Position numbers and translations under genes: made by a program. From positions 1-62,581 of the forward strand of contig JAISGI010000036.1 in the NCBI GenBank assembly GCA_031263095.1: a stretch of DNA of 62,581 nt, read 5' to 3'. The notes beneath the pieces were generated by a model. The model saw nothing but the letters and a program-made list of their open reading frames with translations, searched no databases and had not been told where the DNA came from. Positions 4,951 to 54,574 of this stretch are shown here, in pieces. How positions within the stretch are numbered: position 1 is the first letter of the stretch; the number at the start of each line of letters is the position of its first letter. Origin of the DNA: Rickettsiales bacterium (GTDB lineage: Bacteria; Pseudomonadota; Alphaproteobacteria; Rs-D84; CACZYB01).

Positions 4951-5664
4951 ATGAAACTTACTTATACGGAGAAAATGAAAGTGAACGAAAATATAGTGGC
5001 AATCGACGGACCCGCGGGCGTTGGAAAAGGCACGCTGACCAGGAATTTATGCAACAAGTACGGCTTCGTCGGCCTAGACACCGGAAGCCTTTATAGGGCG
5101 ATAACACTCTACCTTATGCGCCAAGGGTACGATATGGAGAAAATCGACCCGGCGCGTGCGGTCGAGGAGACAAAAAAGATTTCCGACAATCACGAGATAC
5201 TGAAATACGCCGCCGACCCGGAAATCCGCTCCGCCCTCAATTCGAAATATGTATATGTCGTGGCCGACAACGCACCGTTGAGGGAGGTTATAAAGGACTA
5301 CCAGGTCGACTTCGGCCGCAGCCCGCCGCCTCTTGCAAACGGTACACCCGCCAAGGGAGCCGTGGTCGAGGGCAGGGATATAGGAACGATAATCTTCCCC
5401 GACGCGCCCGTGAAAATATTTCTGACCGCCGCGCCGGAAATCAAGGCAAGCCGACGCTACGACGAATACGTGTCCAAGGGCATAGAGGCCGACTATAAAA
5501 GCATACTTGCCGAAATGGTCAAACGCGACGAGGCCGACCGCACACGGAAAGTCGGAACCCTTGTCCCGGCAAAGGACTCGCTTATACTCGACACCTCGGA
5601 CAAGTCGCGCGAAGAGGTGCTTGCCTGGGCCTCGAAAGTCGTCGAAGAACGCCTGAAACTATAA
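4951..5664 (+). CDS. cmk: cytidylate kinase (alternative start ATG 4975)
   Basis: P-loop IAIDGPAGVGKGT, LDTGSLYRA and GRDIGTIIFPDA match Cmk. Confidence 0.9.
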   Translation: MKLTYTEKMKVNENIVAIDGPAGVGKGTLTRNLCNKYGFVGLDTGSLYRAITLYLMRQGYDMEKIDPARAVEETKKISDNHEILKYAADPEIRSALNSKYVYVVADNAPLREVIKDYQVDFGRSPPPLANGTPAKGAVVEGRDIGTIIFPDAPVKIFLTAAPEIKASRRYDEYVSKGIEADYKSILAEMVKRDEADRTRKVGTLVPAKDSLILDTSDKSREEVLAWASKVVEERLKL

Positions 5665-5676
5665 AAATCAAAGCTG

Positions 5677-5754
5677 AAAAAAGGCCAGGGTTCCCCCGGC
5701 CTTTTTTCTCCTACTCCCAATTGAAAATATCGCGAAGCGAGATTTTCAATTGAG
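5677..5754. repeat. bipartite hairpin element, copy E1 (terminator hairpin plus CAATTGAAAA palindrome)
   Basis: The element consists of three parts. First is the hairpin A6-GGCCAGGG-ttc-CCCCGGCC-T6. Second is the linker CTCCTACTCC. Third is the hairpin CAATTGAAAAT-N13-ATTTTCAATTG. The right arm encodes the last codons and stop (CTC AAT TGA) of the minus-strand gene that ends at 5746. Confidence 0.75.
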
Positions 5755-6398
5755 CCTATATATCGAGTACGTAATCTGCTTCGCCGGGTCGTACATTACA
5801 TCCGTTTGAGCAACACCCGGAGTCGTGGTCTTGTCCCAAGTCCAAAATTTATAAACCGCATAGCCGGCAGAGGAGGTGCTAAGCACAATCTCGGCATTGC
5901 TCCCGGTGCCAGTCCATTCGAGGCCGTACGCTATGATAGAGCCGCTGCTTGTAAAAAAGTTGCTCCCGTCGCCTGTCCAGCCAAGCGAATATGCGAATTC
6001 CCGGTCGAAAATGGCCACGCGCGAAACCCTCTGGTTCTGCGCTCCAATCGCAAGGTCGAAACGATAGATTCCAAGGCCAAGCACGCCTCTGCCAAGCACG
6101 GTGCCAAAATTTCCGGCCGCACTGGCGACAAGCTGCCAGCGGCTGACGGCCGGCGTCCCGATACAGGACGAAACCTCGCCAGCTGAGATACTCGGACTGC
6201 CAAGCTTTGGTGCCAGGAATTGGCATGCCTCGGACACGGGCACGGTCGCCCCCTCAGGGCATAGCTCCGGCGTAAAACACGCCGAACAGGTATAATAGTT
6301 TGATGAGTTAGAGTTGTTGGCAGATAGTAGAAGAAGTGCGAATGCTAGGTATTTAGCCTTTTGCCCCCCCCCGTACACTTTTTGTTCATATATGTCAT
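5746..6398 (-). CDS. family-A small secreted Cys-containing protein, copy A1; phase-variable and out of frame with its ATG at the assembled G9
   Basis: ATG ACA TAT ATG AAC AAA AAG TGT ACG-G9 reads MTYMNKKCTGGGKRLNT-stop. The long ORF (..QKAKYLAFALLLLSANNSNSSNYYTCSAC.. to ..IYRLN) joins that ATG only at G10 or G7. A GTG at 6378 is in frame but sits far from the SD. Confidence 0.7.
6364..6372 (-). repeat. poly-G tract (G9 on the coding strand) in the 5' codons of A1
   Basis: C9 counted directly on the + strand. Confidence 0.95.
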
Positions 6399-6446
6399 TG
6401 TCGTCTTTCTCCTTTGGTTAGACTTAGACATGATACAACAAAAAGC

Positions 6447-7016
6447 TTACCTTTTCAAGTTCAACTTTGTGAAATAGAGGGTATCCACAAACCGCCCGTC
6501 CGGCTTGCTGTACCGGTCTTTGATGAAGTGTCCTTCAAGCTTGTACCCCGCACGCTTGGCCACCGCCGCGCTCTTTTTGTTCCGCTCGTCGCAGCGTATG
6601 GAGATTCGCGAAATCCCCGCCTTGAATAGTTCCGCTTCGACAAGCGCCAAGGCTTCGCCCATAAATCCATTGCCCTCCGCTCCCGCGTCAAGCATGTATC
6701 CGATTTCGCACGACCGGTCGCGCCCGCTGAACTTCTGGAAGTCTATCGCACCGACCATCTTGCCACCCGCGAATATGCCATAGTTCAGCATGCCCCACTC
6801 CTTGCGCTCCTTCTCCCAGCGCAAAAGAGCACGAAACTCGTCCTCGGCGCACTTGACCTCAAGCACCCAGTCAAGCCACGGAAGCAGATGCTCCCGGTTC
6901 GCCTGAACAAACGCGAACAACAGCTCCGCACTGGCGAAAGTAGTGGGCAGAGTCCTCAACACCACTCGCTCGCCGACAAGCCTCTTCCGCGCTTTTACAT
7001 ATTTCAAGTCCGTCAT
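6447..7016 (-). CDS. GNAT family N-acetyltransferase (RimJ/RimL-like)
   Basis: Shows the pattern typical of the RimJ/RimL-like acetyltransferase subfamily, including CEIGYMLDAGAEGNGFMGEALALV and KRAGYKLEGHF. Confidence 0.8.
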   Translation of the reverse strand: MTDLKYVKARKRLVGERVVLRTLPTTFASAELLFAFVQANREHLLPWLDWVLEVKCAEDEFRALLRWEKERKEWGMLNYGIFAGGKMVGAIDFQKFSGRDRSCEIGYMLDAGAEGNGFMGEALALVEAELFKAGISRISIRCDERNKKSAAVAKRAGYKLEGHFIKDRYSKPDGRFVDTLYFTKLNLKR

Positions 7017-8744: not shown

Positions 8745-9164
8745 TTATTCATATTTAATTACATAATTCAAGGTTGCCGCCGGCTGCTTGTCCGCGAACG
8801 CGCCGCGCATGTCCGGAGTGCGCTCACCGACAATCGCACGAAGTGCGTTGTACCGCGCGTCCTTTGGAATCTCGGCCCCGTCGCACCAAAGATAGCCCGA
8901 GGGCAATCGCGATGCCGACCATACCGAAACCATACCGACCGGTAATGAGGAAGAGCTTCCCGCGGACATTGTACCGCCGCTTGCCGTACCGCTTGCGTCG
9001 GCCGATTGCTTCTTCGAGCTTGCCGCCCGCTTGGACTTCTTGGCCGCGCGCACGGATTTTTTCGAAGAGCTGGCCCGCGCCGACTTTTTCTTCGCCGCCA
9101 TAGCCTCGTCCGCATTGAACATCGTCAAAAGGGCGAGCACAAGAACCGTCGGAAATATCCTCAT
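8745..9164 (-). CDS. small secreted protein: Lys/Ala/Ser-rich basic spacer plus a phage tail-collar-like domain
   Basis: It starts with the signal peptide MRIFPTVLVLALL and a basic spacer (AKKKSARASSSKKSVRAAKKSKRAASSKK). The C-terminal segment VGMVSVWSASRLPSGYLWCDGAEIPKDARYNALRAIVGERTPDMRGAF fits the tail-collar pattern (W..P.GWL.CDG...Y..L...G...PD.RG). Confidence 0.55.
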   Translation of the reverse strand: MRIFPTVLVLALLTMFNADEAMAAKKKSARASSSKKSVRAAKKSKRAASSKKQSADASGTASGGTMSAGSSSSLPVGMVSVWSASRLPSGYLWCDGAEIPKDARYNALRAIVGERTPDMRGAFADKQPAATLNYVIKYE

Positions 9165-9232
9165 TTTTCCCATCCATAACCTTGGAGGCAATCATACCCT
9201 CGAACTTTCGCATTCGCAAGGAAAATATTTAA

Positions 9233-12001: not shown

Positions 12002-12030
12002 TTGACCCCGCCCCGGCTTCGTGGTATAAT
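12002..12030 (+). promoter_or_regulatory. sigma70-type promoter of A2 (-35 TTGACC, 17-nt spacer, extended -10 TGgTATAAT)
   Basis: TTGACC at 12002-12007 and TATAAT at 12025-12030. AGTCTAAC follows 5 nt later, as it does in the other cassette copies. Confidence 0.7.
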
Positions 12031-12057
12031 GCCAAAGTCTAACAAAAGGAGAAGACT

Positions 12058-12673
12058 ATGAACAAAAATCGTACGGGGGGGGGCAAATAAGTATTTAGCT
12101 ACTGCGCTTCTCCTGATTTCCGCCAACCACGCAAACTCCACCAATTATTATACATGTACAAGCTGCGGCGAGAACCGCCTGTTCACACTGGCCGAGGCGA
12201 CAAAATGCCTTGGCGCCGACACCTCCGGCAAATGGGAAAAGATTGTCGAGGCGGAGAACGACCTGGCAAACTCCGGCAAATACAACCGGACAGGAACTCT
12301 CCCGGCGGGAATTTACCGGCTCGAGTCATACAACCGACATTACGGCCTCGGCTCGGCCACGATACAGATTTCCGGCACGAAATACTATGGCATAAACAAC
12401 TCCATTCATCAGGATACGGCAAGGATAGACATAATGAATTCCGCGGTCGCAACCGGAAACGATAGACCGGAGCATAGCGCTTTCAACTGCTCGGTGGATA
12501 TTCCGGCATATTACACTGACGGCCATTGCAACGACGCAGGCATAGCCGAGGCCGACCTTGCCAAACACAATATAAACATAGATTGGAACACTTGGCGCCA
12601 AGTACCCGGCATAACTGCCGCCAATACCGAGACCTGCCTCGGCTGCGCCGCGATTTATAGGTGGAAAGAATAA
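12058..12673 (+). CDS. family-A small secreted Cys-containing protein, copy A2; phase-variable, OFF at G9
   Basis: ATG AAC AAA AAT CGT ACG-G9 reads MNKNRTGGGK-stop. At G8 or G11 it reads MNKNRTGGANKYLATALLLISANHANSTNYYTCTSC... through to ...CAAIYRWKE. The downstream frame is open from the tract to 12673, and track ORF 12434..12673 is its tail. Confidence 0.75.
12075..12083 (+). repeat. poly-G tract G9 in the 5' codons of A2
   Basis: Counted directly. Confidence 0.95.
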
Positions 12674-12681
12674 GGTTTGTC

Positions 12682-12718
12682 AGGGGGCGGAATTTTTCTC
12701 TTTCCCGCCCCCAATTTT
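12682..12718 (+). terminator. terminator after A2, immediately upstream of the A3 promoter
   Basis: GGGGGCGG-N14-CCGCCCCC followed by AATTTTT. The extended -10 TGaTATAAT follows at 12721-12729. Confidence 0.65.
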
Positions 12719-12760
12719 TGTGATATAATAGTATAGTCTAACCAAAGGAGAAAGACAATA

Positions 12761-13304
12761 ATGTTATATATGAACAAAAAGTGTACGGGGGGGGGCAAAT
12801 AAGTATCTGGCTTTAGCGCTTCTCCTAATATCGACTAACTCTCAATCTTCAAATTATTATACTTGTACCAATTGCCTAGTGCCCGAGCTGTGCGCCACAG
12901 GAGCTACGGCCGACTTCGCCAAGTATGATAAAGCGCTGAGCAGGGACGAAGCCGCCGCCGCATTCGGCACTCCGGCCAAGACGCGCTGGCAACTCGTCGC
13001 AAGCGGCAACGTCGATTCCCAACCCTATTCTATATCCTCATCCGGGGTGTATAGGATAACTGAGCGATGGTCCACCGGATTCCAGCCAAACGAATATCGC
13101 GATTCGTTCGCTTTCGCGCTCTCTTCCTCCGACGGTCAAGTAAAAATGGAGGGATGCCCACAAGTGAATCAAGGCAACGCACTTATTAGCCTCTGCAACG
13201 GCCAAGGCTCGCAAGTGCCGGGGATTTCAGACCAAGACATCGACGCCGAACTCCCACCATTTTCAGGAAGCGGATACAAATGGCAGCTATACAGGTTGCA
13301 ATAA
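12761..13304 (+). CDS. family-A small secreted Cys-containing protein, copy A3; phase-variable, OFF at G9
   Basis: ATG TTA TAT ATG AAC AAA AAG TGT ACG-G9 reads ...CTGGGK-stop. At G8 it reads ..TGGANKYLALALLLISTNSQSSNYYTCTNCLVPELCATG... through to YKWQLYRLQ, which is track ORF 12879..13304. Confidence 0.75.
12787..12795 (+). repeat. poly-G tract G9 in the 5' codons of A3
   Basis: Counted directly. Confidence 0.95.
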
Positions 13305-13313
13305 AAGACAGTG

Positions 13314-13360
13314 TGCCCGGCTGCACCGCAGTTTATAGGTGGAAAAGCCAAGGTTTCACC
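13314..13360 (+). pseudogene. orphan 3'-end remnant of an A2-like gene
   Basis: TGCCCGGCTGCACCGCAGTTTATAGGTGGAAAAGCCAAGGTTTCACC aligns with the A2 3' end at 12635-12682 (TGCCTCGGCTGCGCCGCGATTTATAGGTGGAAAGAATAAGGTTTGTCA), with a 1-nt indel. Confidence 0.6.
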
Positions 13361-13373
13361 TATATAAAAACCG

Positions 13374-13456
13374 AAAAACTCCGACGGCATGTACGGCGGA
13401 GTTTTTCTCATTCTTCCAATTGAAAAAGACGGACTACGCGAAGTATTTTTTAGTTG
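13374..13456. repeat. bipartite hairpin element, copy E2 (second hairpin degenerate)
   Basis: The first hairpin is AAAAACTCCG..CGGAGTTTTT and the linker is CTCATTCTTC. The second hairpin is CAATTGAAAAA-N17-ATTTTTTAGTTG. It overlaps the stop codon of the NUDIX gene. Confidence 0.6.
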
Positions 13457-15819: not shown

Positions 15820-16443
15820 TTAGAATGCATAGCGCAAGCCGACCTCCGCTACGCTCTTCCTGATCTTCATGTCGTCGGCGCCGGACTGCGAGGCGCTTCC
15901 CTTGGTGTCGAGGAATTTGTATGCTATATCGACGTTCAAGTTCTCAGATACGTCGAAGGCAAGCCCGGCCATTACGCTCCACGCGAACTTGGCTCCGTGA
16001 GCCACTTCGTCGCTGGCTTCAAACACTACGTTCCCGCTCGCATCATCGGTTTCCGTGACGTCGAGCTTCATATATGTGTCGACCAAGCCAAGCCCTATGC
16101 CTATGAACGGAGTGAAATTGAGCCCTGTCGGAATGTCCCAGTACCCGTTCACCATATAGGACAGATAGTGTGCCTTGAACTTGTCCTGCTCGTTCGTCGT
16201 CCCGTCGTCGTACGAGTAGGTATTGCTGGTGGTGAAGCCGTACCCAAACTCGAACTCGCTCCTGAACTCGCCCGTCTTGACGCCATAGGCAATGCTTATG
16301 CCAAGGTCATCAAGCCTGATGGGCTGGTCGCCATACCTGGCCCAATTATAAGGCAGGCGCGCGCCGACATACTGTTTCACTTCGGCCGAAACCGCAGTGG
16401 AAAAGAACGCCGCCGCAAACGCTATAAGGGATAGTTTCTTCAT
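15820..16443 (-). CDS. outer-membrane beta-barrel protein (OmpA-barrel / opacity-like family)
   Basis: Signal peptide MKKLSLIAFAAAFFSTAVSA, alternating beta-strand pattern, C-terminal ..GLRYAF. Confidence 0.75.
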   Translation of the reverse strand: MKKLSLIAFAAAFFSTAVSAEVKQYVGARLPYNWARYGDQPIRLDDLGISIAYGVKTGEFRSEFEFGYGFTTSNTYSYDDGTTNEQDKFKAHYLSYMVNGYWDIPTGLNFTPFIGIGLGLVDTYMKLDVTETDDASGNVVFEASDEVAHGAKFAWSVMAGLAFDVSENLNVDIAYKFLDTKGSASQSGADDMKIRKSVAEVGLRYAF

Positions 16444-16564
16444 CTTCCTTCCTTTCTTTTTTGTGTCCAAACGCCGTCGGCGCCGGAATAAATTGTAGCG
16501 TTTCAAGGCCGCATTGCCAAGTAGAACATAAGCCTAGGACGCACCGCCTACCACAAAAATCAAA

Positions 16565-16644
16565 GCGAAGAAATCCCGCGGTCTCCGTGGGATTTCTTCT
16601 CACTATTCCAATTGAAAAAGCCGCTTGCGGATTTTTCAATTGAG
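16565..16644. repeat. bipartite hairpin element, copy E3
   Basis: The first hairpin is GAAGAAATCCCGCGG-tct-CCGTGGGATTTCTTC and the linker is TCACTATTC. The second hairpin is CAATTGAAAAA-gccgcttgcgg-ATTTTTCAATTG. Its right arm carries the A4 codons CTC AAT TGA. It is roughly 80 percent identical by eye to E4, in direct orientation. Confidence 0.8.
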
Positions 16645-17212
16645 TTTATACAGTGCTCCATACGCCGCATTCCCAACCTGAAAGTCCGCCTTGCTTATAT
16701 TGGGAACGTTGATTATATCGGAAGTTGCACGCGCCTGCACGAGCATGTTATAGCCTCCTTTGCCCGTTTCGTATATCCAGGAATTGTATCCATAACCAGT
16801 AGAATCTTGGAAATAGTGCAATATGAGAGAATTGACCGGATTTTCAAGCACGACTCCCTCTATATGGAAATTGGAACCGTCTATTGTCGAGACAAGCATG
16901 TATATCCCGGGCGCGATGTCCGGAATGTCCATTCTGCCAAGCGCGCCTATATCCTTTTTATTCTCGCGAACTTTCGTCCATCTGGAAAAGGCCGGACTGC
17001 CAAGACAATCCGTGAACTCCTCAATGCTAAGCACGGCATTGAGCTTGCAGTCCGCGCTGCGTCCAGCATTGACACAAGCCCCCGGCACGGCGCAAGCTGT
17101 GCAGGTATAATAATTAGATGATTGAGAGTTGTTGGCAGATAGTAGGAGAAGCGTTGCGAGTACTATTACTCTATTTGCCCCCCCCCGTACGCTTTTTGTT
17201 CATATATGTCAT
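16636..17212 (-). CDS. family-A small secreted Cys-containing protein, copy A4; phase-variable, OFF at G9
   Basis: ATG ACA TAT ATG AAC AAA AAG CGT ACG-G9 reads ..RTGGGK-stop. At G8 it reads ..TGGANRVIVLATLLLLSANNSQSSNYYTCTACAVPGAC... through to GALYKLN, which is track ORF 16636..17088. Confidence 0.75.
17178..17186 (-). repeat. poly-G tract (G9 on the coding strand) in the 5' codons of A4
   Basis: C9 counted on the + strand. Confidence 0.95.
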
Positions 17213-17308
17213 TATTGTCTTTCTCCTTTGGTTAGACTTATATATTATACCGCATTATAAAGATAAAAGAAAGTAAAAATTCAGATTTTGCCCAGCCAAA
17301 CATAAAAA

Positions 17309-18584: not shown

Positions 18585-18735
18585 CTCTATCTCCTTATTA
18601 CCATATAGAATAGCACAGCCAAGGCACAGTGTCAAGACGCAACTTGGCAAAGACTAAATGCCTTTGACTATATACTTACTTACAAATGGCTTGCAATGTG
18701 GTATGATTCGCTGGTCTAACGATAAGGAGGTACGA

Positions 18736-19053
18736 ATGGACATCAAGGAGCTGACAAAGTTTGTCGAAGAAGACTACAAGGCTTGGAACGACATGTTCAA
18801 GCATCAGGAAAAAAGCACCGAGGCGTTCGTAATCCTCGGCAAGCTCGGCAAAAAGCTGGGCGACCTGGACAAGGAGGTGGCCAAGGAGTTTGGCTTCTGC
18901 CACAAGGAGGCTTTGAAGGAGCCGATGTGCGCCGACCGCAAGCTTGCGGGCCTCGTGATAAATTCTCTGCTCTTGGCGAAAGTCTTGGACATAGATATGG
19001 AGAAGGCTATGAAAGACAAGATGGAGAGAATGCGGGAACACGGAAAAAAATAG
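18736..19053 (+). CDS. hypothetical all-helical cytoplasmic protein
   Basis: SD AAGGAGG lies upstream of ATG 18736. No signal peptide. Any resemblance to MazG-like folds is only vague. Confidence 0.5.
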   Translation: MDIKELTKFVEEDYKAWNDMFKHQEKSTEAFVILGKLGKKLGDLDKEVAKEFGFCHKEALKEPMCADRKLAGLVINSLLLAKVLDIDMEKAMKDKMERMREHGKK

Positions 19054-19163: not shown

Positions 19164-19189
19164 TTGACAAATCATGGGGGGGGTAGAAT
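19164..19189 (+). promoter_or_regulatory. candidate promoter with a G8 tract inside the spacer
   Basis: TTGACA (19164-19169), then aatcat-G8 (a 14-nt spacer), then TAGAAT (19184-19189). It lies about 55 nt upstream of the SD and ATG of the gene starting at 19243. Confidence 0.45.
19176..19183 (+). repeat. poly-G tract G8, intergenic, inside the promoter spacer
   Basis: Counted directly. Confidence 0.95.
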
Positions 19190-19242
19190 GCGGTTTGTCC
19201 AGAAAAATTGGATGCAATGTATAACAAAACGAAAGGAAAGAA

Positions 19243-19671
19243 ATGTATAATAAGATAATGCTTGCGGCGGTTGCTGCCATAGCGGTTTCAAGCGGAGCAT
19301 GGGCGGTAAATAAATCAGGCAGGCCGACTAATGCGCCAGCCAAAACCGTAACCGTCAAGTACGGTATAGTAGTAAGCAAGGAATTCGACTTCGGTGCGAA
19401 AGGTTCATGCAATAATGCCACATTCGGCGACCCGGCCAGAGGCGTAAATAAGGAATGCTACAGCGGCCTGGGTGAAAAAATAGCCAGCGAGGGCAAAGGT
19501 TTCACTCGCCCGGACTGCTGCACGGCAGTATTATATGGCAAGCTGACGTCGAAATCCGTACCGATGGGAAGTGCCTGCAACAACGCGACCTTCGGCGACC
19601 CAGCCAAAGGATATAAGAAAGCTTGCTACATTGACGGCCGCAAAGTCGCCGATGAAGGTGGCGAAATCTAG
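19243..19671 (+). CDS. small secreted Cys-rich protein with an internal duplication
   Basis: Signal peptide MLAAVAAIAVSSGAWA. The motif [KG]GSxCNNATFGDPA[RK]G..K.CY occurs twice. Confidence 0.65.
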   Translation: MYNKIMLAAVAAIAVSSGAWAVNKSGRPTNAPAKTVTVKYGIVVSKEFDFGAKGSCNNATFGDPARGVNKECYSGLGEKIASEGKGFTRPDCCTAVLYGKLTSKSVPMGSACNNATFGDPAKGYKKACYIDGRKVADEGGEI

Positions 19672-31200: not shown

Positions 31201-32329
31201 CTATTGTATCGCCCTGACGGCATTTACGCACTCGTCGATTTCCTTGAAAAGCTTGTCCACCTCAAGCATGCCGACAACGCCCGCCGCGCCCGAGGCAAGT
31301 CCGCCGACCGCCGCCACGCCCGAGGTTATCATTCCCCCGACGCCCGAGCCAAGCTTGCCTATGCCCTTTGCTTCCTGATGGGCGAGCTTGCTCTTGACCT
31401 CGGCATCGGCCAAGGCATAGTTCTTGCCGCGATTATAATCCGCGTCTTGCAGATACTTCGCATACGCGTCATCGTCCCAAGTCCACGAAGCCATGTCCAC
31501 CGCCAGTCTCGAGTTGTCGTTGTAAGTAGCTATCAGGTTGCCCAAGGTCGAGCCATAAAGCACCGGCTTGTCGCTCGTGCAGGTGGTGGAAGCAATGGGC
31601 GCGAACTTGACGGAGGTCTCGGTAAAGGTTATGTCATCGGACGAGCAGCCCTCTATGCTGTCGTGCGCGTCGAGTATCTGGGCGGCAAGCTCGACTTGGT
31701 CGTCAAGAAGACTGTCCATATCCCTGTCTATGTCCGCTTTACTTTTGTAGTTGGCCATTACCGCGCCCTTCATTGTTTCGGGAAGCGAACCGAGCGCCGC
31801 GCCCATATCGGCGTTGTTGCCCTCTTTTATGAAAGCGTCCTCTCTGGCAATCGAGGCTTTCGCATGCTCCTCTTTCGCCTTTTTAAGATCGCTCGAGTTT
31901 TTAATCTGCCCGGCAAGGTTCAGGCCGCCGCCGATAAGGGACGCCGCACCGCCGCCTATTGAAAAGCCAAGCGCAACCTGAAGCGTCTGCTTGTCGCGTA
32001 TTTTCCCGCACGCGGTTTTCGCTTTGTTGATAAGGGCCCAAGTCTCCGCGCCCGCACCCACGCTTGCAACGGCTATTCCGACATCCCCGGCCGGAGCTTC
32101 GTAGGTCGAAGCCACAGGCTCCGCCGCAACGCTTTCCGCCGTGGGAACAGCCGCAGGATTGTTGTGTATAGCGCCGCCGCCGGCTGCAACCGCGCCACTG
32201 GAGCGCCTGGAAACAGGAGCCTTTGGCCGGTTGTCCCGCCTCTGCGCTCCGGCTTCACCGCCGATTGCCGAGATTAAAACTAAAAGGGAAAGACTATACG
32301 CCCCCCCCCGTGCACAGTTTGTTCGTCAT
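31201..32329 (-). CDS. family-B secreted glycine-zipper / coiled-coil protein, copy B1; phase-variable, OFF at G9
   Basis: ATG ACG AAC AAA CTG TGC ACG-G9 reads MTNKLCTGGGV-stop. At G8 it reads MTNKLCTGGAYSLSLLVLISAIGGEAGAQRR... and joins track ORF 31201..32115. It is paralogous to the gene at 39461..40588: both have the ACGKI motif, Gly-zipper segments, and a C-terminal ..EIDEC..A.. tail. Confidence 0.7.
32301..32309 (-). repeat. poly-G tract (G9 on the coding strand) in the 5' codons of B1
   Basis: C9 counted on the + strand. Confidence 0.95.
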
Positions 32330-32382
32330 CGTCTTCTCCTTTTCATTAGACTAGGATATTATACCACAAAAACGTCCGTGAG

Positions 32383-37531: not shown

Positions 37532-39112
37532 GTGGCGGAGGAAAAGTACAAGGTTCTGGCGCGCAAATATCGGCCGTCCTCCCTGCCCGAGCTTATCGGG
37601 CAGGAGGTTCTGGTAAGGACGCTTACCAACGCCATAGCCCAAAACCGCCTCCACCACGCCTATATTTTCACAGGGATAAGGGGAGTAGGTAAAACCTCGA
37701 CCGCCCGCATTCTGGCCAAGTCCCTCAACTGCTCCGCCCAGGACGGGCCAAGCGTCGAACCCTGCGGCAAGTGCGAGAATTGCCAGGCGATTAAAGAAGA
37801 CCGCCACATGGACGTAATCGAAATGGACGCCGCCTCCCATACCTCGGTCGACGACATACGCGAGATTATCGACGGAGCGCAGTACAAGCCCACCATGGCC
37901 CGCTATAAGGTGTACATTATAGACGAAGTGCACATGCTCTCGAAATCCGCTTTCAACGCTATACTGAAAACGCTCGAGGAGCCGCCGCCCTACGTCAAGT
38001 TCATATTCGCCACGACCGAAATTCGCAAGGTTCCGCCGACCGTGCTATCAAGGTGCCAGCGGTTCGATTTGGCCGCGGTCGAGCCGGAGACGCTCTCCGC
38101 CCACTTCAAGAAAATCGCCAGCTTGGAGGGGATAAGCATAGACGACGACGCACTCTCGATTGTCGCCAAGGTCGCCGACGGCTCGGTCAGGGACGGGCTC
38201 TCTTTCCTCGATCAAATCATCGCCAATTCTATCGAGGATGACAAGGCCATAACCGCCGCCGACGTCGCCAAAATCCTGGGCCTCTCGGCACGCGGAGCAA
38301 CGCTCGACCTGTTCGACGCAATCGCCGCCGCCGATACCAAGGGCGCTCTCGTGATACTTGAAAACGCGCAGAAAGCAGGCGCCGACCCGGTAATGCTGCT
38401 TGGCGACTTGCTCGAGGTTGTGCATTTTCTGACCAGGACCAAGGTCCAGCCCGACTCCCTCTCCTCGCTTCCCATGACCGGGGCCGAGCAGGAACGCCTC
38501 CGCGAAATGGCGGCCAAGCTCTCGATAGCCACGCTCGCCCGCACATGGCAGATGTTGATAAAAGCCTTCGACGAAATGGCCATAGCTCCCTCGCCCGCCG
38601 CCGCGCTTGAAATGGCGGTGATAAGGATAGCGCACATCGGCACCCTGCCCTCTCCCGCCGAGGTCATAGCAAAAATCGAATCCGGCGCTTCCTCGGCTGA
38701 GGAACAAAAAAAAAAATTAGCTCTGTCGCAGGATGACGCCGCACCCACTCCGCTCTCGCTCGAAACATCCGAAGCCCTCTCCGCGCTTTTGAAATCCAAG
38801 CGCAGCTTCCTCCTTTCCCAAGACGTCGAAAAGTACGCAAGGTTTGTAGGATTTGACGGCGGCGCCCTGCGCCTGAATTTCGCGCCCTCCGCGCCCCGAG
38901 AGATTGTCTCGAACCTCAACGCCTTCTTCGCCGAAAACCATATGAACATAAAGGTGGAAAAGTCGGACGAGCCGGGCGCTCCCACGGTTGCCGAGGCCGC
39001 CGAAACCCTGTTCAACACACAGGTGGCCGAGTTTGCGTCAAACCCGATACTCAAGGAGATTCTGGAAATTTTCCCCAATTCTTATGTTGCAAAAATAGAA
39101 ACCGCGGTCTAG
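37532..39112 (+). CDS. dnaX: DNA polymerase III subunit tau (and possibly gamma through recoding)
   Basis: ARKYRP..L.ELIGQE, Walker A GIRGVGKTS, zinc module C..C..C..C, DEVHMLS, and SRC motif LSRCQRF. Confidence 0.95.
   Translation: MAEEKYKVLARKYRPSSLPELIGQEVLVRTLTNAIAQNRLHHAYIFTGIRGVGKTSTARILAKSLNCSAQDGPSVEPCGKCENCQAIKEDRHMDVIEMDAASHTSVDDIREIIDGAQYKPTMARYKVYIIDEVHMLSKSAFNAILKTLEEPPPYVKFIFATTEIRKVPPTVLSRCQRFDLAAVEPETLSAHFKKIASLEGISIDDDALSIVAKVADGSVRDGLSFLDQIIANSIEDDKAITAADVAKILGLSARGATLDLFDAIAAADTKGALVILENAQKAGADPVMLLGDLLEVVHFLTRTKVQPDSLSSLPMTGAEQERLREMAAKLSIATLARTWQMLIKAFDEMAIAPSPAAALEMAVIRIAHIGTLPSPAEVIAKIESGASSAEEQKKKLALSQDDAAPTPLSLETSEALSALLKSKRSFLLSQDVEKYARFVGFDGGALRLNFAPSAPREIVSNLNAFFAENHMNIKVEKSDEPGAPTVAEAAETLFNTQVAEFASNPILKEILEIFPNSYVAKIETAV
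38706..38716 (+). promoter_or_regulatory. A11 slippery run inside dnaX, a candidate recoding site
   Basis: The zero frame reads CAA AAA AAA AAA TTA. The +1 frame reads TAG at 38718-38720. The -1 frame reads ATT AGC TCT GTC GCA GGA TGA, ending at 38736. Confidence 0.5.
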
Positions 39113-39460: not shown

Positions 39461-40588
39461 CTATAGGGCCTTCGCCGCTTTCTGACACTCTTCTATCTCT
39501 TTCTCAAGCTGCGAGAATTGGGCAATGCCTATGCCTCCGGTGATGGCCGATGCCAACCCGCCAGCAGTCGCAAGGCCAGCGGTTATAATGCCGCCCGTCC
39601 CGGTCGCAAGCTTGCCAAGACCCTTTGGCTCTGGCCTGCCGCCGGCCTTTATTATGCCGTCTTTTTTGGCCAGCTCGGACAGTCTTTCGACAACACCCTG
39701 TTTTAATGTATCGAACTGTACTTTGCTTTCGACGATATCATCCTCCTTGAAATTTTGGAAGAAACCTTCGGGTAGCGTACCCGTAAGCTCAGAATTCGAA
39801 CTATTGTACACGCATGAGGCGGAGTACTTGACCCGTATCGAAGCTGTTACAAGTATGCCATATGTTAAAGTCTCGTCATAACTATCCAAAGCTTCTCTTA
39901 GTGATTTATAAACTTTACCGCAATCCATCTCATTACCAACAATTCCTCTGATCTTATTGGCTTCCTCATTGACATCCATTCTAATATCGCGGACAGAGGC
40001 AAGACACTCATCGATAGTAATCTCCTCGCAATTATTGGCTATGTAGTAGGAGAAAAATCTGATGTCGTAGTAATCATAATCACTATCATCATAGAAATAC
40101 CTATTTATATAGTATGCCAAGTATTCGGCGTCAAATCCAAGCCCCTCGGCGTCGCCTCCCTCCTCCTCGGCCTTCTTCTCGTCAAACCTGTTCTTCACCT
40201 GCCCGACGAAGTTGAGGCCGCCCGCAAGGGTCGAAACGCCGCCGCCCGCGACCCCGCCAATCATAAGGCCTTTAATTTGCCTAAGGTCGATTTTGCCGCA
40301 CGCGGATTTTGCCTCTCCGGAAGATTGCTGAGCTTGGGCAAGCTTGGCCTCCGAGTCCGACAGGCTTCGCCTTAGCCGGGCGATTTCGGCGTCCCTGTCT
40401 ATCGCCTGCTGCTGAAGCCTTAGGATTTCGCCGGAGTCGGCCGAGGGCTGGACTATTGGTTGGCTTGCGCCGGAGCTCCCGGGCGACCCGCGCGCGCGTT
40501 GCGCTCTTCCGGCCGACGCGCCTGCGGATACAAGGGTGAAGATAGCCAGAAAGACCAGGCTATCCGCCAATCTTCCACCCCCCCCCAT
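39461..40588 (-). CDS. family-B secreted glycine-zipper / coiled-coil protein, copy B2; the poly-G tract includes the start codon and is in frame at G9
   Basis: AT-G9-T reads ATG GGG GGG GGT GGA.., giving MGGGGRLADSLVFLAIFTLVSAGASA (a signal peptide). A weak SD (AGGA) lies 4 nt upstream. The upstream ATG at 40605 would join only at G10. Confidence 0.7.
   Translation of the reverse strand: MGGGGRLADSLVFLAIFTLVSAGASAGRAQRARGSPGSSGASQPIVQPSADSGEILRLQQQAIDRDAEIARLRRSLSDSEAKLAQAQQSSGEAKSACGKIDLRQIKGLMIGGVAGGGVSTLAGGLNFVGQVKNRFDEKKAEEEGGDAEGLGFDAEYLAYYINRYFYDDSDYDYYDIRFFSYYIANNCEEITIDECLASVRDIRMDVNEEANKIRGIVGNEMDCGKVYKSLREALDSYDETLTYGILVTASIRVKYSASCVYNSSNSELTGTLPEGFFQNFKEDDIVESKVQFDTLKQGVVERLSELAKKDGIIKAGGRPEPKGLGKLATGTGGIITAGLATAGGLASAITGGIGIAQFSQLEKEIEECQKAAKAL
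40578..40586 (-). repeat. poly-G tract (G9 on the coding strand) overlapping the B2 start codon
   Basis: C9 counted on the + strand. Confidence 0.95.
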
Positions 40589-40642
40589 ATATTCCTGATA
40601 TTCATAAAAGTACTATACCACCAAAACGCCGCCCGTACAACC

Positions 40643-45173: not shown

Positions 45174-46183
45174 TCGGCTATTTTAGCATTTTTCCGAAGC
45201 GATTGCAACTTCATGATTTGCTCCCACGCAGCGGCAAGCGCAAAGGACAATAGCACGCAGTACACGGCGTAATGCCGCTTGCCAATCGTGAAATGGCCGA
45301 GTATGGCAAACGCCGCCGCTTGGAACACATACGCGCCATAGCAGTATTTCGATACATGCCCAACCCACGAAAATCTGTTCAGCCATGAAAATATCGCCCC
45401 CGCCGACGTCGCCATGCCAAGCAAAAGAATGGAGAATACGGCGACAAGCTGTATGTCCAAACTGCCTGCGCTTTTCGAGAAAATCAACGCGTTGAAGATA
45501 AAGCCAAGACCAAGGACGCTCGCCGCTGTCCATACCCAATATCCGCCCCGCGCGGGTTTGATGTGCACCGCTATTTCGCGCAGGATTATGCCAAGTCCCA
45601 TGCCGGCGACGGCGCGCGCAATCGACCTGGGAAAGGCATTGAACATCACGCCGGCATGCACGCCCAAGCTGCCGAAATTCGCTTCTAACGCCGTATAGCA
45701 AAGCCAAGCAACAACGGCCGTAAGGAACAGAAGTTTCCTCCGTTCGAAATGCAAAAGCGCGAAATAGAACAGCATACTTGTCCAGAAATACGCACACACA
45801 AACCACGCGAAGAAATTCACGCTACGGCCAGGCAGTCCTACGTTCACAAGCATAAGCAGGCTCGATATGATGTCTTTGTTCCAATCCTGGCCAAGCGCCA
45901 GCAAAAGGATTATGCTTGCCGCATAGGCTGGCCACAGCCGCCAGAACCGCCGCAACGCGAACTCCTTGAACGTAAGCGGCCGCCGGATAAACCCGTCGTA
46001 CAGCAGGTATCCGCCTATTATAAAGAAAAAATCTACTATTATATCGGTCGGGCGCAGGTATCGGGCTTCCCACCACCTGTCGAATACCCCGTGCCTAAGT
46101 ATTATAAGTATTGTGAACAGGATCCGGAGGAATTCTATAGACCATATTGCCCCCCCCTTATGTTTATCCTGTAATTTCAACAT
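45170..46183 (-). CDS. acyltransferase family 3 (OafA/YrhL-like) membrane protein; G8 tract in codons 9-12, in frame as assembled
   Basis: It starts MLKLQDKHKGGAIWSIEFLRILFTILIILRHG and has many transmembrane segments. The tract reads AAG GGG GGG GCA. Confidence 0.8.
   Translation of the reverse strand: MLKLQDKHKGGAIWSIEFLRILFTILIILRHGVFDRWWEARYLRPTDIIVDFFFIIGGYLLYDGFIRRPLTFKEFALRRFWRLWPAYAASIILLLALGQDWNKDIISSLLMLVNVGLPGRSVNFFAWFVCAYFWTSMLFYFALLHFERRKLLFLTAVVAWLCYTALEANFGSLGVHAGVMFNAFPRSIARAVAGMGLGIILREIAVHIKPARGGYWVWTAASVLGLGFIFNALIFSKSAGSLDIQLVAVFSILLLGMATSAGAIFSWLNRFSWVGHVSKYCYGAYVFQAAAFAILGHFTIGKRHYAVYCVLLSFALAAAWEQIMKLQSLRKNAKIAE
46150..46157 (-). repeat. poly-G tract (G8 on the coding strand) in the acyltransferase 5' codons
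   Basis: C8 counted on the + strand. Confidence 0.95.
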
Positions 46184-53314: not shown

Positions 53315-53372
53315 ACGGGCAAGGATACCCCAACCCTTGCAACATTGCAATATTTATGATATAATCAGGCCC

Positions 53373-53945
53373 ATGACAAGAAAAGACATACGCGGCGCCA
53401 GCATGGTCGAGCTTTTGCTCTACATCGGCATAATAATCACCGTGACGCTCGCCGGCGTCAAGTTCCAAAGCCAGGCCATAGAAAAGACACGCCAGGCCGA
53501 GCTCCAGATGACCCTTTCCGACGCCGAGAAAAAGATAAACGAGCTCTACCTCGGCCGCCCCTGGGGTACGATGACCGAGGGGGAGCGGGCAAAGTACCTG
53601 CTCGAGCGCGGCGTAAGCCTCACCTCGCCGTGGAAATCCGGCATGCAGGACTATGGCACGGGCGCGAACGGCAGGAAGCTCCTCGGCAACATGACCGTCT
53701 CGACAAGCGACGGGATAAGCAGCAATAGCGCGATTCGCATGCCCCACTTCGCCGTGCACGTCAAGAACCTGCCACGGCCAAGCTGCATCTGGGTCGCCAC
53801 TTCGCAATCCTCCGTCGCCGCCTGCGTTTCGGTCAACAACGCGGTAGCGGTGTCCGAAACCGACTGCATAAGGGAAATCGGCACCGCCACTTCCCGCTGC
53901 GACAGGGACAATAACGAGGTTATAGTGTTCTTCAGGAAAGAGTGA
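53373..53945 (+). CDS. type IV pilin-like (class III signal peptide) protein
   Basis: MTRKDIRG|ASMVELLLYIGIIITVTLAGV has Gly at -1, Glu at +5 and a hydrophobic helix. Two Cys pairs are present in the C-terminal domain. Confidence 0.65.
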   Translation: MTRKDIRGASMVELLLYIGIIITVTLAGVKFQSQAIEKTRQAELQMTLSDAEKKINELYLGRPWGTMTEGERAKYLLERGVSLTSPWKSGMQDYGTGANGRKLLGNMTVSTSDGISSNSAIRMPHFAVHVKNLPRPSCIWVATSQSSVAACVSVNNAVAVSETDCIREIGTATSRCDRDNNEVIVFFRKE

Positions 53946-53946
53946 T

Positions 53947-54574
53947 ATGCGAACTTCAAAACTACCCCCCCCCATTCGTCGCCGCGATTCTCTGCCTGAT
54001 CTCCTTGGTCGCCCGCGCAAGCGTCAAGCCGCAGGCGACGTTTTCCCCGGCCGAGCTTGCTAGGTCGATAACCGGCTCGCGCGCCCAGGAAGTAAAGATT
54101 GACGAACAGCTGAAAGCCCAGGTCGCGGCCGTCAGACAGGCCTCCGAGAATTTCAAGGCCGCCCAACTCGCCTACGCCGAAAAACTTAAATCCATAAAGA
54201 ATTCCATAGCCGAGCTGAAAAACAAGAAACGGGGTATCGGCAAGGATAGGAAAAAACTGAACCGCGAGCTTTCAAGAACAGGCCAGAACATCAAACGCAG
54301 ATACGGCGCCCTGAACCGCACGGGCGGGAAATCTTCGGCGGAATATACAGCCGTCAAGGCCGAGGTCGAACGCTACAACCAGGCGGTAAAACAGATAAAC
54401 GAGCAAAAACGCAACATCGCGGCCCTCAAGTCCGCCGAGCAGCGTATCAAGCTCTTCGACAAGGCCGCCGCAAGACAATCCTCGCACTCCGACCGCTCCG
54501 CCGACAAAATGGCCGACCGGCTCGCCACTGTCCAAGACGCGGTCGATGGCCTTCGCGGCGATATAGGAATATGA
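53947..54574 (+). CDS. secreted basic coiled-coil protein; phase-variable, with C9 out of frame with the SD-linked ATG
   Basis: SD AGGAAAGAG lies upstream of ATG 53947. At C9 it reads MRTSKLPPPIRRRDS... and stops after 38 codons. At C8 it reads MRTSKLPPPFVAAILCLISLVARA, a signal peptide joined to the 200-aa ORF. The track start GTG 53942 overlaps the pilin stop codon. Confidence 0.6.
53965..53973 (+). repeat. poly-C tract C9 in the 5' codons
   Basis: Counted directly. Confidence 0.95.

What the first reader, a model, noticed from the sequence alone, without database searches (positions are those of the whole stretch)
12002..12100. Portable promoter-leader-SD-start-polyG module shared by two unrelated protein families
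The same ~75-95-bp 5' module occurs at 12022-12095(+), 12721-12810(+), ~6340-6450(-), ~17165-17250(-) and ~32295-32365(-). Its order is: -10 box (TATAAT, often TGgTATAAT), exactly 5 nt, AGTCTAAC(C/A)AAAGGAGAA(A)GAC, ATG(..)AACAAAAAG(T/C)GTACG-G9-C. A degenerate version (TGGTATAGT ... AT-G9) heads the gene ending at 40588. Downstream of the tract, family A (NYYTC.xC small proteins) and family B (glycine-zipper/coiled-coil proteins) are unrelated. The regulatory and N-terminal module therefore appears to have spread independently of the cargo. Copies lie in both orientations: A1 and A4 on the minus strand, A2 and A3 on the plus strand. They could also act as inverted homologous substrates for inversions or gene conversion.
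Basis: seen in the sequence. Interest (0 to 1): 0.8.

Follow-up and report, generated by a model that had tools for sequence, protein, structure and literature searches.

The report
Shared poly-G on/off switch cassette
Five genes for secreted proteins from two unrelated families, in an uncultured Rickettsiales-like bacterium, begin with the same ~70-base promoter-leader-start segment ending in a run of nine Gs; this looks like a classic slipped-strand on/off (phase-variation) switch, a known kind of device seen here in a little-known lineage.

Summary
A 53-69-nt module (extended -10 box, exactly 5 nt, AGTCTAA(C/T), AAAGGAGAA Shine-Dalgarno, GAC, ATG, AACAAA, ACG) followed by G9 heads A1, A2, A3, A4 and B1. 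A profile built from A1-A4 without the G tract finds B1 at E=4e-7. The "degenerate" sixth copy (B2, 40588) is not detected; it shares only the promoter box and an ATG-G9.

At G9, five of the six genes are out of frame with their long, fully open cargo ORFs. A2, A3, A4 and B1 need G8 or G11, A1 needs G7 or G10, and B2 is in frame. This is the anatomy of slipped-strand phase variation.

The 62.6-kb window holds nine G/C tracts of 8 or more (2.5 expected), all at gene 5' ends.

The cargo families are real and unrelated to each other. Relatives of both occur in MAGs labelled "Rickettsiales bacterium". One MAG has at least 12 family-A paralogs, many called from after the signal peptide, and one ORF reads through a module-like sequence.

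Movement between families is plausible but rests on one gene. Tract-length variation, transcription starts and inversions could not be tested.

The parts
6364..6447 (-). A1 module: TATCAT -10 box, GTCTA, AGTCTAACC, AAAGGAGAAAGAC, ATG at 6398 and 6389, AACAAAAAGTGTACG, G9 at 6364-6372
   Evidence: E=2.6e-22
5746..6363 (-). A1 cargo (family A, NYYTCSAC...IYRLN). It is in frame with the SD-led ATG only at G10 or G7. At G9 only a GTG without a Shine-Dalgarno, 6 nt before the tract, is in frame.
12002..12083 (+). A2 module (the reported site): TTGACC -35 box at 12002, TGGTATAAT at 12022-12030, AGTCTAAC at 12036, SD, ATG at 12058, G9 at 12075-12083. Short leader form.
12084..12673 (+). A2 cargo (family A, ...AAIYRWKE subfamily). 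In frame at G8 or G11. At G9 translation stops after MNKNRTGGGK.
12715..12795 (+). A3 module: TGATATAAT, AGTCTAACC, SD, ATG at 12761 and 12770, G9 at 12787-12795. It follows directly after the A2 terminator hairpin.
12796..13304 (+). A3 cargo, in frame at G8 or G11. Its 3' flank (about 13300-13400) keeps a remnant of an A2-type C-terminus and terminator.
17178..17257 (-). A4 module: CGGTATAAT, AGTCTAACC, SD, ATG at 17212 and 17203, G9 at 17178-17186
16636..17177 (-). A4 cargo, in frame at G8 or G11. Its 3' end and hairpins are 81% identical to those of A1.
32301..32372 (-). B1 module: TGGTATAAT, ATCCT, AGTCTAATG, AAAAGGAGAAGAC, ATG at 32329, ACGAACAAACTGTGCACG, G9 at 32301-32309. Short leader form, like A2.
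   Evidence: E=4.2e-7 with a profile made from family A only
31201..32300 (-). B1 cargo (family B: conserved ACGKI..GGLN.aGQiKN near the N-terminus, variable centre, glycine-zipper C-terminus). In frame at G8 or G11.
40578..40628 (-). B2 5' region: TTTTGGTGGTATAGT promoter box and ATG-G9 (tract 40578-40586), with no AGTCTAA and no AAAGGAGAA. Not a module copy. The gene (39461-40588) is in frame at G9.
   Evidence: (no hit)
18699..18738 (+). Promoter-leader half of the module without a G tract: TGGTATGAT, 5 nt, GGTCTAAC, GATAAGGAGG, 6 nt, ATG. It heads a 105-aa protein with no signal peptide.
   Evidence: (E=0.13)
53965..53973 (+). C9 tract in codons 7-9 of another secreted-protein gene with a different leader. 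The SD-led ATG at 53947 is in frame only at C8 or C11.
46150..46157 (-). G8 tract in the 5' end of an Acyl_transf_3 membrane protein gene (ATG at 46183), currently in frame
19176..19183 (+). G8 tract between TTGACA and TAGAAT, upstream of the secreted-protein gene 19243-19671

Best explanation
The module is the common 5' expression-and-switch cassette of a set of phase-variable ('contingency') genes for secreted or surface proteins. The host is an uncultured, Rickettsiales-like Gram-negative bacterium.

How it works. An extended -10 promoter (TGnTATAAT; the -35 box is not conserved) should start transcription at or next to the A/G of AGTCTAA. This start is inferred from spacing. A 22-35-nt leader carries a strong Shine-Dalgarno (AAAGGAG) 6-10 nt before the ATG. 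The first 6-9 codons (M(TY)MNKK(C/R)T) form the charged start of a signal peptide and run straight into a G9 tract. Gain or loss of one G by slipped-strand mispairing during replication puts the ATG in or out of frame with the cargo (inferred). At the assembled G9, A1-A4 and B1 are OFF and stop 1-8 codons after the tract; B2 is ON. Each gene would switch independently, so a population would display many combinations of these proteins.

Origin. The cassette, from -10 box to tract, is the most conserved part of each locus. It is kept by selection on its signals and probably also by recombination between paralogs. B1 most likely acquired it, or kept it from a common 5' ancestor, by recombination at the 5' end.

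Shown here: the sequence anatomy, the frames, the excess and placement of tracts, the unrelatedness of the cargo, and family expansion in a related genome. Inferred: the transcription start, actual switching, and the route by which B1 got the cassette.
For: Frames: all six tracts are G9. A2, A3, A4 and B1 read through only at G8 or G11, A1 at G7 or G10, and B2 at G9. Cargo frames are open for 169-366 codons after the tract.

Tract excess: 9 G/C tracts of 8 or more against 2.5 expected, and 7 of 9 or more against 0.7 expected. None of 200 Markov simulations reached these numbers. All nine lie within about 30 nt of a start codon or inside a promoter.

Products: signal peptides are followed by the conserved mature start (A)NYYTCxxC. 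Homologs P0009 and P0011 show MKK...AGA|ANYY(T/S)C. A further tract lies in an Acyl_transf_3 gene.

Module conservation: 94-96% nucleotide identity over 65-67 nt between genes whose proteins are 34-53% identical. B1 is found at E=4e-7.

Each gene looks like its own transcription unit, with promoter-like and terminator-like sites on either side.

Second genome: at least 12 family-A paralogs carry LBL52_ locus tags of one 'Rickettsiales bacterium' MAG. Five of them (P0012-P0016) are called from the first start codon after NYYTCxxC, exactly like the window's own OFF-state calls P0006 and P0007. P0008 reads ...CDIILYVKPKEKTDDKELTTNGGGQKAKY, which is the -10 box, GTC.AA, CCAAAGGAGAAA, GACGAC and a Gly3 tract translated in the cargo frame. 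It aligns to window 6417-5935.

A modal length of nine, with insertions predominating at G8 and deletions at G11, is documented for Campylobacter jejuni poly-G tracts (PMC3401435).
Against: No tract-length polymorphism was seen. Only consensus sequence is available, and the one extra contig (L001) is 100% identical, comes from sample SRR14710921 and also has G9. No DNA of the related MAG could be fetched, so its OFF states and its module are inferred from protein calls. No experimental transcription start or protein data exist. The uniform G9 could also be read as a fixed feature decoded by polymerase slippage. Cross-family sharing rests on B1 alone.
Confidence: 0.75

Rival explanations
1. The cassette is not portable. 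The A-B1 similarity reflects a shared regulatory design (a promoter / initial-transcribed-sequence / SD consensus, or an operator for one regulator) used by several co-regulated genes, to which poly-G tracts were added independently.
For: GTCTAA is rare in the window: 10 occurrences against about 30 expected for a hexamer. Eight of the ten sit just downstream of -10-like boxes, including genes without G tracts at 18714, 30635 and 43640. g18736 has the same -10 box, 5-nt spacing, GTCTAAC, SD and 6-nt spacing to ATG as B1, with 27 of 40 positions identical without gaps, but no tract. Other genes (B2, X1, X2) have tracts behind different leaders.
Against: The A-B1 match continues past the SD into the coding start (GAC, ATGA, AACAAA, ACG-G9-C) and scores E=4e-7, while g18736 scores only E=0.13. 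The match also includes positions with no obvious signal function.
Confidence: 0.3
2. The G9 tracts are decoded without DNA change. RNA-polymerase slippage or ribosomal frameshifting on the G run would give constant low-level expression of all copies, so the genes are not truly OFF.
For: The same genome has an A11 run at codon ~391 of dnaX, where loss of one A gives a stop two codons later. This is the classic tau/gamma slippage arrangement. All tracts have the same length, in the window and apparently in the LBL52 ortholog of A1 (GGG in P0008).
Against: A1 needs one extra base while A2-A4 and B1 need one fewer, and B2 needs none. No single directional frameshift serves all of them. Slippage on G/C runs is less established than on A/T runs (background knowledge). 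A uniform modal G9 is also what mutational bias produces in C. jejuni (PMC3401435).
Confidence: 0.12
3. The frameshifts are sequencing or assembly errors at homopolymers, or the genes are decaying pseudogenes of a reduced symbiont genome.
For: Homopolymers are error-prone. The contig comes from a metagenome, and five of six genes are disrupted at the tract.
Against: An independent unitig assembly of the sample gives the same G9 at A2. Errors would not produce the same length at genes that need different corrections. Cargo frames stay open for 169-366 codons, and promoter, SD and tract sit at the same place in all copies and in a second genome. The excess and the 5' placement of tracts are not what random decay would give.
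Confidence: 0.06
4. The opposed copies serve mainly as substrates for programmed inversions or cassette exchange (a shufflon-like system), and that is why they are conserved.
For: Copies lie in both orientations. A1 and A4 also share an 81%-identical 3' module, and A3 keeps a remnant of an A2-type 3' end, so cargo has been exchanged between conserved flanks at some time.
Against: No recombinase domain appeared among about 45 window proteins scanned. An inversion between A1 and A2 would only flip housekeeping genes and would not re-pair promoters with cargo. Each copy already has its own promoter. Unitigs agree with the contig arrangement.
Confidence: 0.08

Closest known systems
Neisseria opa genes (about 11 loci; CTCTT repeats in the leader-peptide coding sequence)
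   Same: A multigene family of surface proteins scattered over the chromosome. Each copy has its own promoter and a slippage-prone repeat inside the signal-peptide coding region that sets the reading frame, giving independent stochastic ON/OFF switching (PMC3745409).
   Different: The repeat here is a G homopolymer, not a pentamer. The cargo families are new and unrelated to Opa. The same 5' cassette also heads a member of a second, unrelated family.
Campylobacter jejuni poly-G/C contingency loci
   Same: G/C homopolymers of about 8-11 in 5' coding regions of surface-related genes, with a modal length of nine. C. jejuni G8 reporter tracts mutated mainly by insertion and G11 tracts by deletion (PMC3401435). 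An acyltransferase-type surface-modifying gene is among the targets here too.
   Different: C. jejuni has 29 such loci in the whole genome of strain NCTC11168 (PMC4965091 abstract). Here there are 9 in 62.6 kb. C. jejuni tracts are not embedded in a shared promoter-leader cassette.
Mycoplasma vsp/vpma (and vlp) variable lipoprotein loci
   Same: [quoted passage not shown] In M. hyorhinis vlp, a homopolymer tract controls ON/OFF.
   Different: vsp and vpma switch by Xer-type site-specific inversion onto a single promoter. The vlp tract is in the promoter spacer. Those proteins are lipoproteins with a lipobox. Here every copy has its own promoter, the tract is in the coding start, no lipobox is present and no recombinase was seen.
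Borrelia burgdorferi 'upstream homology box' / Erp (OspE, OspF, Elp) genes
   Same: A conserved upstream box and leader peptide are shared by subfamilies with different mature proteins; Elp stands for 'OspE/F-like leader peptide' (PMC12242104; titles of Marconi 1996 and Akins 1999 cited). This is the closest precedent for a promoter-plus-leader module spread over different cargo.
   Different: The Borrelia genes have no repeat switch, sit on cp32 prophage plasmids and encode lipoproteins. The original papers could not be read here, so the comparison rests on secondary citations and background knowledge.

Membership tests
Simple-sequence-repeat contingency locus (slipped-strand phase variation) | Hypermutable repeat (G/C homopolymer of about 8 or more) | tested here: met
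   G9 at A1-A4, B1 and B2; also C9, G8 and G8 elsewhere
Simple-sequence-repeat contingency locus (slipped-strand phase variation) | The repeat is placed so that +/-1 unit switches the frame between a short stop and a long intact ORF | tested here: met
   In-silico G7-G11 translations. Cargo frames stay open for 169-366 codons.
Simple-sequence-repeat contingency locus (slipped-strand phase variation) | Tracts over-represented and concentrated at 5' ends of surface-related genes | tested here: met
   9 against 2.5 expected (8 or more) and 7 against 0.7 expected (9 or more); 0 of 200 simulations reached these. All lie at gene starts or promoters. Signal peptides were judged by inspection and by homologs; Acyl_transf_3 hit.
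Simple-sequence-repeat contingency locus (slipped-strand phase variation) | Observed tract-length polymorphism within or between populations | not testable with these tools
   Only consensus sequence is available. L001 comes from sample SRR14710921, is 100% identical to the window and has G9. Indirect hint: truncated gene calls in the LBL52 MAG.
Multigene families with a conserved 5' UTR + leader-peptide cassette and divergent cargo (opa, vsp/vpma, Borrelia UHB/Erp type) | 5' non-coding region and N-terminal coding region much more conserved than the rest, across members with unrelated mature parts | tested here: met
   94-96% nucleotide identity in the module against no nucleotide similarity in the cargo. 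A and B are unrelated by BLASTP. Profile hit on B1 at E=4e-7.
Multigene families with a conserved 5' UTR + leader-peptide cassette and divergent cargo (opa, vsp/vpma, Borrelia UHB/Erp type) | Lipoprotein signal peptide (lipobox) as in vsp/vpma and Erp | tested here: not met
   No L-x-x-C lipobox. Homologs indicate cleavage after A-x-A before (A)NYYTC.
Site-specific inversion shufflon (vsa/vsp/vpma type) | Dedicated recombinase, and a single expression site exchanged among silent copies | tested here: not met
   Every copy has its own promoter-like site. No recombinase domain appeared in the Pfam/NCBIfam scans of about 45 window proteins. The rest of the genome was not seen.
Programmed frameshift / transcriptional slippage site | One defined direction of shift restores the frame at every copy | tested here: not met
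   A1 needs +1 nt, A2-A4 and B1 need -1 nt, and B2 needs none.

The most novel reading that the evidence does not exclude
The promoter-leader-start-polyG segment is a transferable 'switch cassette'. By short-patch recombination it can be grafted onto the 5' end of unrelated secreted-protein genes, making any of them stochastically switchable. In this lineage it would have spread over several cargo families, with conserved 3' modules and cargo remnants marking the exchanges.
Probability: 0.25. Interest if true: 0.65.

Novelty: new member of a known kind. Interest (0 to 1): 0.45.

Why it matters
If the switch operates as inferred, this uncultured Rickettsiales-like bacterium varies its surface with an unusually dense set of poly-G contingency genes: nine tracts in 62.6 kb. 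These include two new families of secreted proteins, one of which has at least 12 paralogs in a related genome.

That would point to strong, fluctuating selection from a host or from phages. I am not aware of repeat-based phase variation being described in such a lineage, but I did not check this.

There is a practical consequence. Gene callers truncate or mis-start these genes, both in the window's own calls and in the LBL52 MAG, so the families are invisible to routine annotation.

The shared cassette could also show whether switchability can be passed from one gene family to another. The present evidence for that is a single gene.

Tried and rejected
- **Genome scan.** An exact-pattern scan of 185,579 species genomes for AGTCTAAN{2,3}AAAGGAGAAN{0,1}GAC gave 13 single chance hits in unrelated taxa. 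The source organism and its relatives were not recovered.
- **Metagenome and viral scans.** The JGI metagenome scan with the module plus G7 gave one hit in purine-rich unrelated DNA. A viral-contig scan gave five SD-like chance hits without G tracts.
- **Encoding contigs.** Window proteins returned only 100%-identical unitigs from sample SRR14710921 that break at the repeats. Every LBL52 MAG protein tried was not on record. Three other contigs were recovered: L017 (family-B relative P0005) lacks its 5' end, and L018 and L019 (A2-like genes in other MAGs) have ordinary signal peptides and no module.
- **Word-index protein search.** Family A alone found nothing. Only the full HMMER scan found relatives.
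- **Structure and family searches.** AlphaFold on family A with four sequences gave pLDDT 49.7, so no fold search was run. PDB profile searches found nothing for A and only noise for B. Pfam found nothing for A or B. Rfam found nothing in the window.
- **RNA folding.** Folding the first 100 nt of each transcript gave a 4-5-bp GUCU...AGAC hairpin and pairing of the G tract with CUUCUCC. The z-scores were only +0.1 to -1.8, so no structure is claimed.
- **Silent cassettes.** tblastn with all family members found no further A or B fragments in the window.
- **Sample accessions.** A literature search for them found nothing.

Full report
**1. What is in the sequence**

Reading the five sites shows one common order:
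- a T-rich stretch;
- an extended -10 box (TGGTATAAT in A2 and B1, TGATATAAT in A3, CGGTATAAT in A4, TTGTATCAT in A1);
- exactly 5 nt;
- AGTCTAA(C/T);
- a strong Shine-Dalgarno, AAAGGAGAA, followed by GAC;
- an ATG;
- AACAAA and 4-5 more bases, then ACG and nine Gs followed by C.

A1, A3 and A4 carry a long leader form, with an extra GACAATAATGACATAT that adds a second in-frame ATG. A2 and B1 carry a short form.

The 18-mer core occurs four times against 0.04 expected. A profile built from A1-A4 with the G tract removed recovers B1 at E=4.2e-7, and nothing else in the window scores below E=0.1.

Among A1, A3 and A4 the module is 94-96% identical over 65-67 nt. Similarity continues at 88-92% through the signal peptide to NYYTCxxC and then becomes undetectable at the nucleotide level. 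For B1 the similarity ends at the tract.

Family A proteins are 29-53% identical to each other, and B1 and B2 are 27% identical. A and B share nothing beyond the module-encoded first ~20 residues.

The sixth, 'degenerate' copy (B2) is not found by the profile. It shares only the promoter box (CGTTTTGGTGGTATAGT against CGTTTTTGTGGTATAAT in B1) and an ATG fused to G9.

**2. What the G tract does**

I translated each locus with G7 to G11.

| Gene | Tract in assembly | In frame with the SD-led ATG at | State at assembled length |
|---|---|---|---|
| A1 | G9 | G7 or G10 | OFF |
| A2 | G9 | G8 or G11 | OFF |
| A3 | G9 | G8 or G11 | OFF |
| A4 | G9 | G8 or G11 | OFF |
| B1 | G9 | G8 or G11 | OFF |
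| B2 | G9 | G9 | ON |

The cargo frames are open for 169-366 codons after the tract. In the OFF genes translation ends 1-8 codons after the tract, for example MNKNRTGGGK-stop in A2.

The window has nine G/C tracts of 8 or more, where a first-order Markov model gives 2.5. It has seven of 9 or more, where 0.7 is expected. None of 200 simulations reached either number (one search agrees).

All nine tracts lie at gene 5' ends. Six are the A and B genes. The other three are:
- a C9 in codons 7-9 of another secreted protein gene, whose SD-led ATG at 53947 needs C8 or C11;
- a G8 in the start of an Acyl_transf_3 gene;
- a G8 between TTGACA and TAGAAT upstream of a secreted protein gene.

This is the standard anatomy of slipped-strand (simple-sequence-repeat) phase variation. 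A modal length of nine, with G8 tracts biased to insertions and G11 to deletions, is what Bayliss et al. measured in Campylobacter jejuni (PMC3401435).

Each A gene looks like its own transcription unit. Promoter-like sites fit the modules of A1 and A2, and terminator-like hairpins follow A1, A2 and A4.

**3. The cargo and the organism**

Neither family matches Pfam, PDB or, for A, a usable AlphaFold model.

A full HMMER scan of 1.84 billion representative proteins with the family-A profile found 26 hits. The credible ones are small proteins that share NYYTCxxC, L(T/S)LxEAxxxIGTPxKSRW, PG(I/V)YR, TPGIT and a C-terminal (I/L)Y(K/R)L(N/D).

Twelve of them carry LBL52_ locus tags of a single MAG that NCBI labels 'Rickettsiales bacterium', and eight of those lie on one 105-kb contig. 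Family B has a homolog in the same MAG (LBL52_00345) and one in a JGI metagenome. Both show conserved ends and a variable centre.

The window itself is ordinary chromosome of a Gram-negative bacterium. It carries ClpX, GAPDH, PheST, DnaX, RecR, LpxB, MsbA, LolCDE, SecF and FtsH.

Three features of the LBL52 proteins bear on the finding:
- P0009 and P0011 have plain signal peptides (MKK...AGA|ANYY(T/S)C) without a Gly run. The cargo therefore exists without the module, and the mature N-terminus is (A)NYYTC.
- P0012-P0016 are called from the first possible start codon after NYYTCxxC ((M/V/L)P(E/G)xC), exactly like the window's own OFF-state calls P0006 and P0007. This suggests their true starts are also out of frame.
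- P0008 is 44% identical to A1 and begins ...TCDIILYVKPKEKTDDKELTTNGGGQKAKY. Read as DNA, that is TGTGATATAAT, GTCAAR, CCAAAGGAGAAA, GACGAC and three Gly codons, followed by the same CAAAAGGCTAAATAC as A1. tblastn aligns it to window 6417-5935, through the tract and the Shine-Dalgarno.

The module is therefore conserved in a second genome whose cargo has diverged to 44%. That argues for selection on the cassette and not only for recent gene conversion. The DNA of that MAG could not be obtained, so these three points are inferences from protein calls.

**4. Is the module portable?**

Evidence for:
- One family-B gene carries the full module, in the short form also seen in A2.
- The cargo occurs without it (P0009, P0011).
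- The promoter-leader half occurs, with identical spacing, on a cytoplasmic-looking gene at 18736 that has no tract.
- The family shows other signs of exchange between conserved flanks. A1 and A4 share an 81%-identical 3' module of about 130 nt, including the palindrome CAATTGAAAA...TTTTCAATTG across the stop codon. The 3' flank of A3 keeps a remnant of an A2-type C-terminus and terminator.

Reasons for caution:
- Cross-family sharing rests on B1 alone.
- GTCTAA occurs only 10 times in the window, and 8 of these lie just after -10-like boxes, three of them at genes without tracts. Part of the shared sequence may therefore be a regulatory or initiation signal common to a set of genes.
- The module scans of genomes, metagenomes and viral contigs gave only chance hits, so no further cargo families could be sought.

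I put the 'transferable switch cassette' reading at about 0.25 and the 'shared regulatory design' reading at about 0.3. The remainder is common descent of the 5' end with later divergence.

**5. Rivals to phase variation**

- **Sequencing error or pseudogenes.** This is unlikely. An independent unitig assembly gives the same G9, genes needing opposite corrections have the same length, and the cargo frames are intact.
- **Polymerase or ribosome slippage.** This cannot be excluded. The genome seems to use an A11 slippage site in dnaX. However, the copies need shifts in different directions.
- **Inversions between opposed copies.** Nothing supports them. No recombinase was found in the window, each copy has its own promoter, and flipping the 6.4-12.0 kb segment would not re-pair promoters with cargo.
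- **RNA structure.** Folding gave nothing significant, and Rfam gave nothing.

**6. Comparison with known systems**

In function this is closest to the Neisseria opa design: a repeat in the leader-peptide coding sequence of each member of a dispersed family (PMC3745409). It is also close to Campylobacter poly-G loci.

The pairing of a conserved 5' UTR and N-terminus with unrelated cargo has precedents. One is Mycoplasma vsp/vpma (PMC2268961). Another is the Borrelia upstream-homology-box / Erp genes (the original papers were not readable).

It differs from the Mycoplasma and Borrelia systems in having no lipobox, no recombinase and one promoter per copy.

I class it as a new member of a known kind (contingency-gene families), in an unusual lineage and with new cargo families. 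The cross-family cassette is a modest and still thinly supported twist.

**7. Verdict**

The most likely mechanism is slipped-strand ON/OFF switching through a shared promoter-leader-start-polyG cassette (confidence 0.75). Interest is 0.45.

Noticed in passing
window 38706-38716 (+), inside dnaX 37532-39112: An A11 run lies at codon ~391 of the DNA polymerase III gamma/tau gene. Loss of one A gives a stop two codons later (..EEQKKN*) and gain of one gives a stop after 8 codons. This looks like a tau/gamma slippage site.
   Followed up: partly
window 46150-46157 (-): A G8 tract sits in the first dozen codons of an Acyl_transf_3 membrane acyltransferase gene (ATG at 46183). It is in frame at G8 and is a likely phase-variable surface-modification gene.
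   Followed up: partly
window 53947-54574 (+), tract 53965-53973: A C9 tract encodes PPP in the signal peptide of a coiled-coil secreted protein. The SD-led ATG at 53947 is in frame only at C8 or C11, while a GTG at 53942 without a Shine-Dalgarno is in frame at C9. The leader differs from the module.
   Followed up: partly
window 19165-19195 (+): A G8 tract lies between TTGACA and TAGAAT (14-nt spacer) upstream of the secreted-protein gene 19243-19671. It may be a promoter-spacer switch; the spacer would reach 17 nt only at G11.
   Followed up: no
window 13290-13400 (+) against 12615-12700 (+): The 3' flank of A3 keeps a remnant of an A2-type C-terminus (CPGCTAVYRWK against CLGCAAIYRWKE) and terminator. 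This is a sign that the A3 cargo replaced an A2-like body.
   Followed up: partly
window 5660-5790 (-) and 16550-16680 (-): A1 and A4 share an 81%-identical 3' module of about 130 nt. It includes a palindrome CAATTGAAAA..TTTTCAATTG spanning the stop codon, followed by a second hairpin and GCTTTGATTTTT.
   Followed up: partly
window 18714, 30635, 43640 (+) and the module copies: The hexamer GTCTAA occurs only 10 times on both strands (about 30 expected). Eight occurrences lie just downstream of -10-like boxes, including three genes without G tracts. It may be a common initial-transcribed or regulatory element.
   Followed up: partly
window 53357-53945 (+): TGATATAAT is followed 7 nt later by an ATG at 53373, a leaderless position. 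The product starts MTRKDIRGASMVELLLY, which looks prepilin-like, but it has no NCBIfam hit. It lies directly upstream of the C9-tract gene.
   Followed up: partly
window 40588-40612 (-): B2 has a second ATG at 40605, six nt after its -10 box (a leaderless position), that is in frame at G7 or G10. B2 would therefore be OFF in only one of the three frames.
   Followed up: no
window 5746-6378, 12879-13304, 16636-17088, 31201-32115 (existing gene calls P0001, P0007, P0006, P0002): Database gene calls for the window's own A and B genes start after the signal peptide or are fragments, because of the tract frameshift. The same pattern appears in the LBL52 MAG annotation, so these families are systematically mis-annotated.
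   Followed up: yes
window 8745-9191 (-) and 15820-16506 (-): A small secreted protein with a phage tail collar domain and an Opacity/OMP beta-barrel family porin lie among the phase-variable genes.
   Followed up: no
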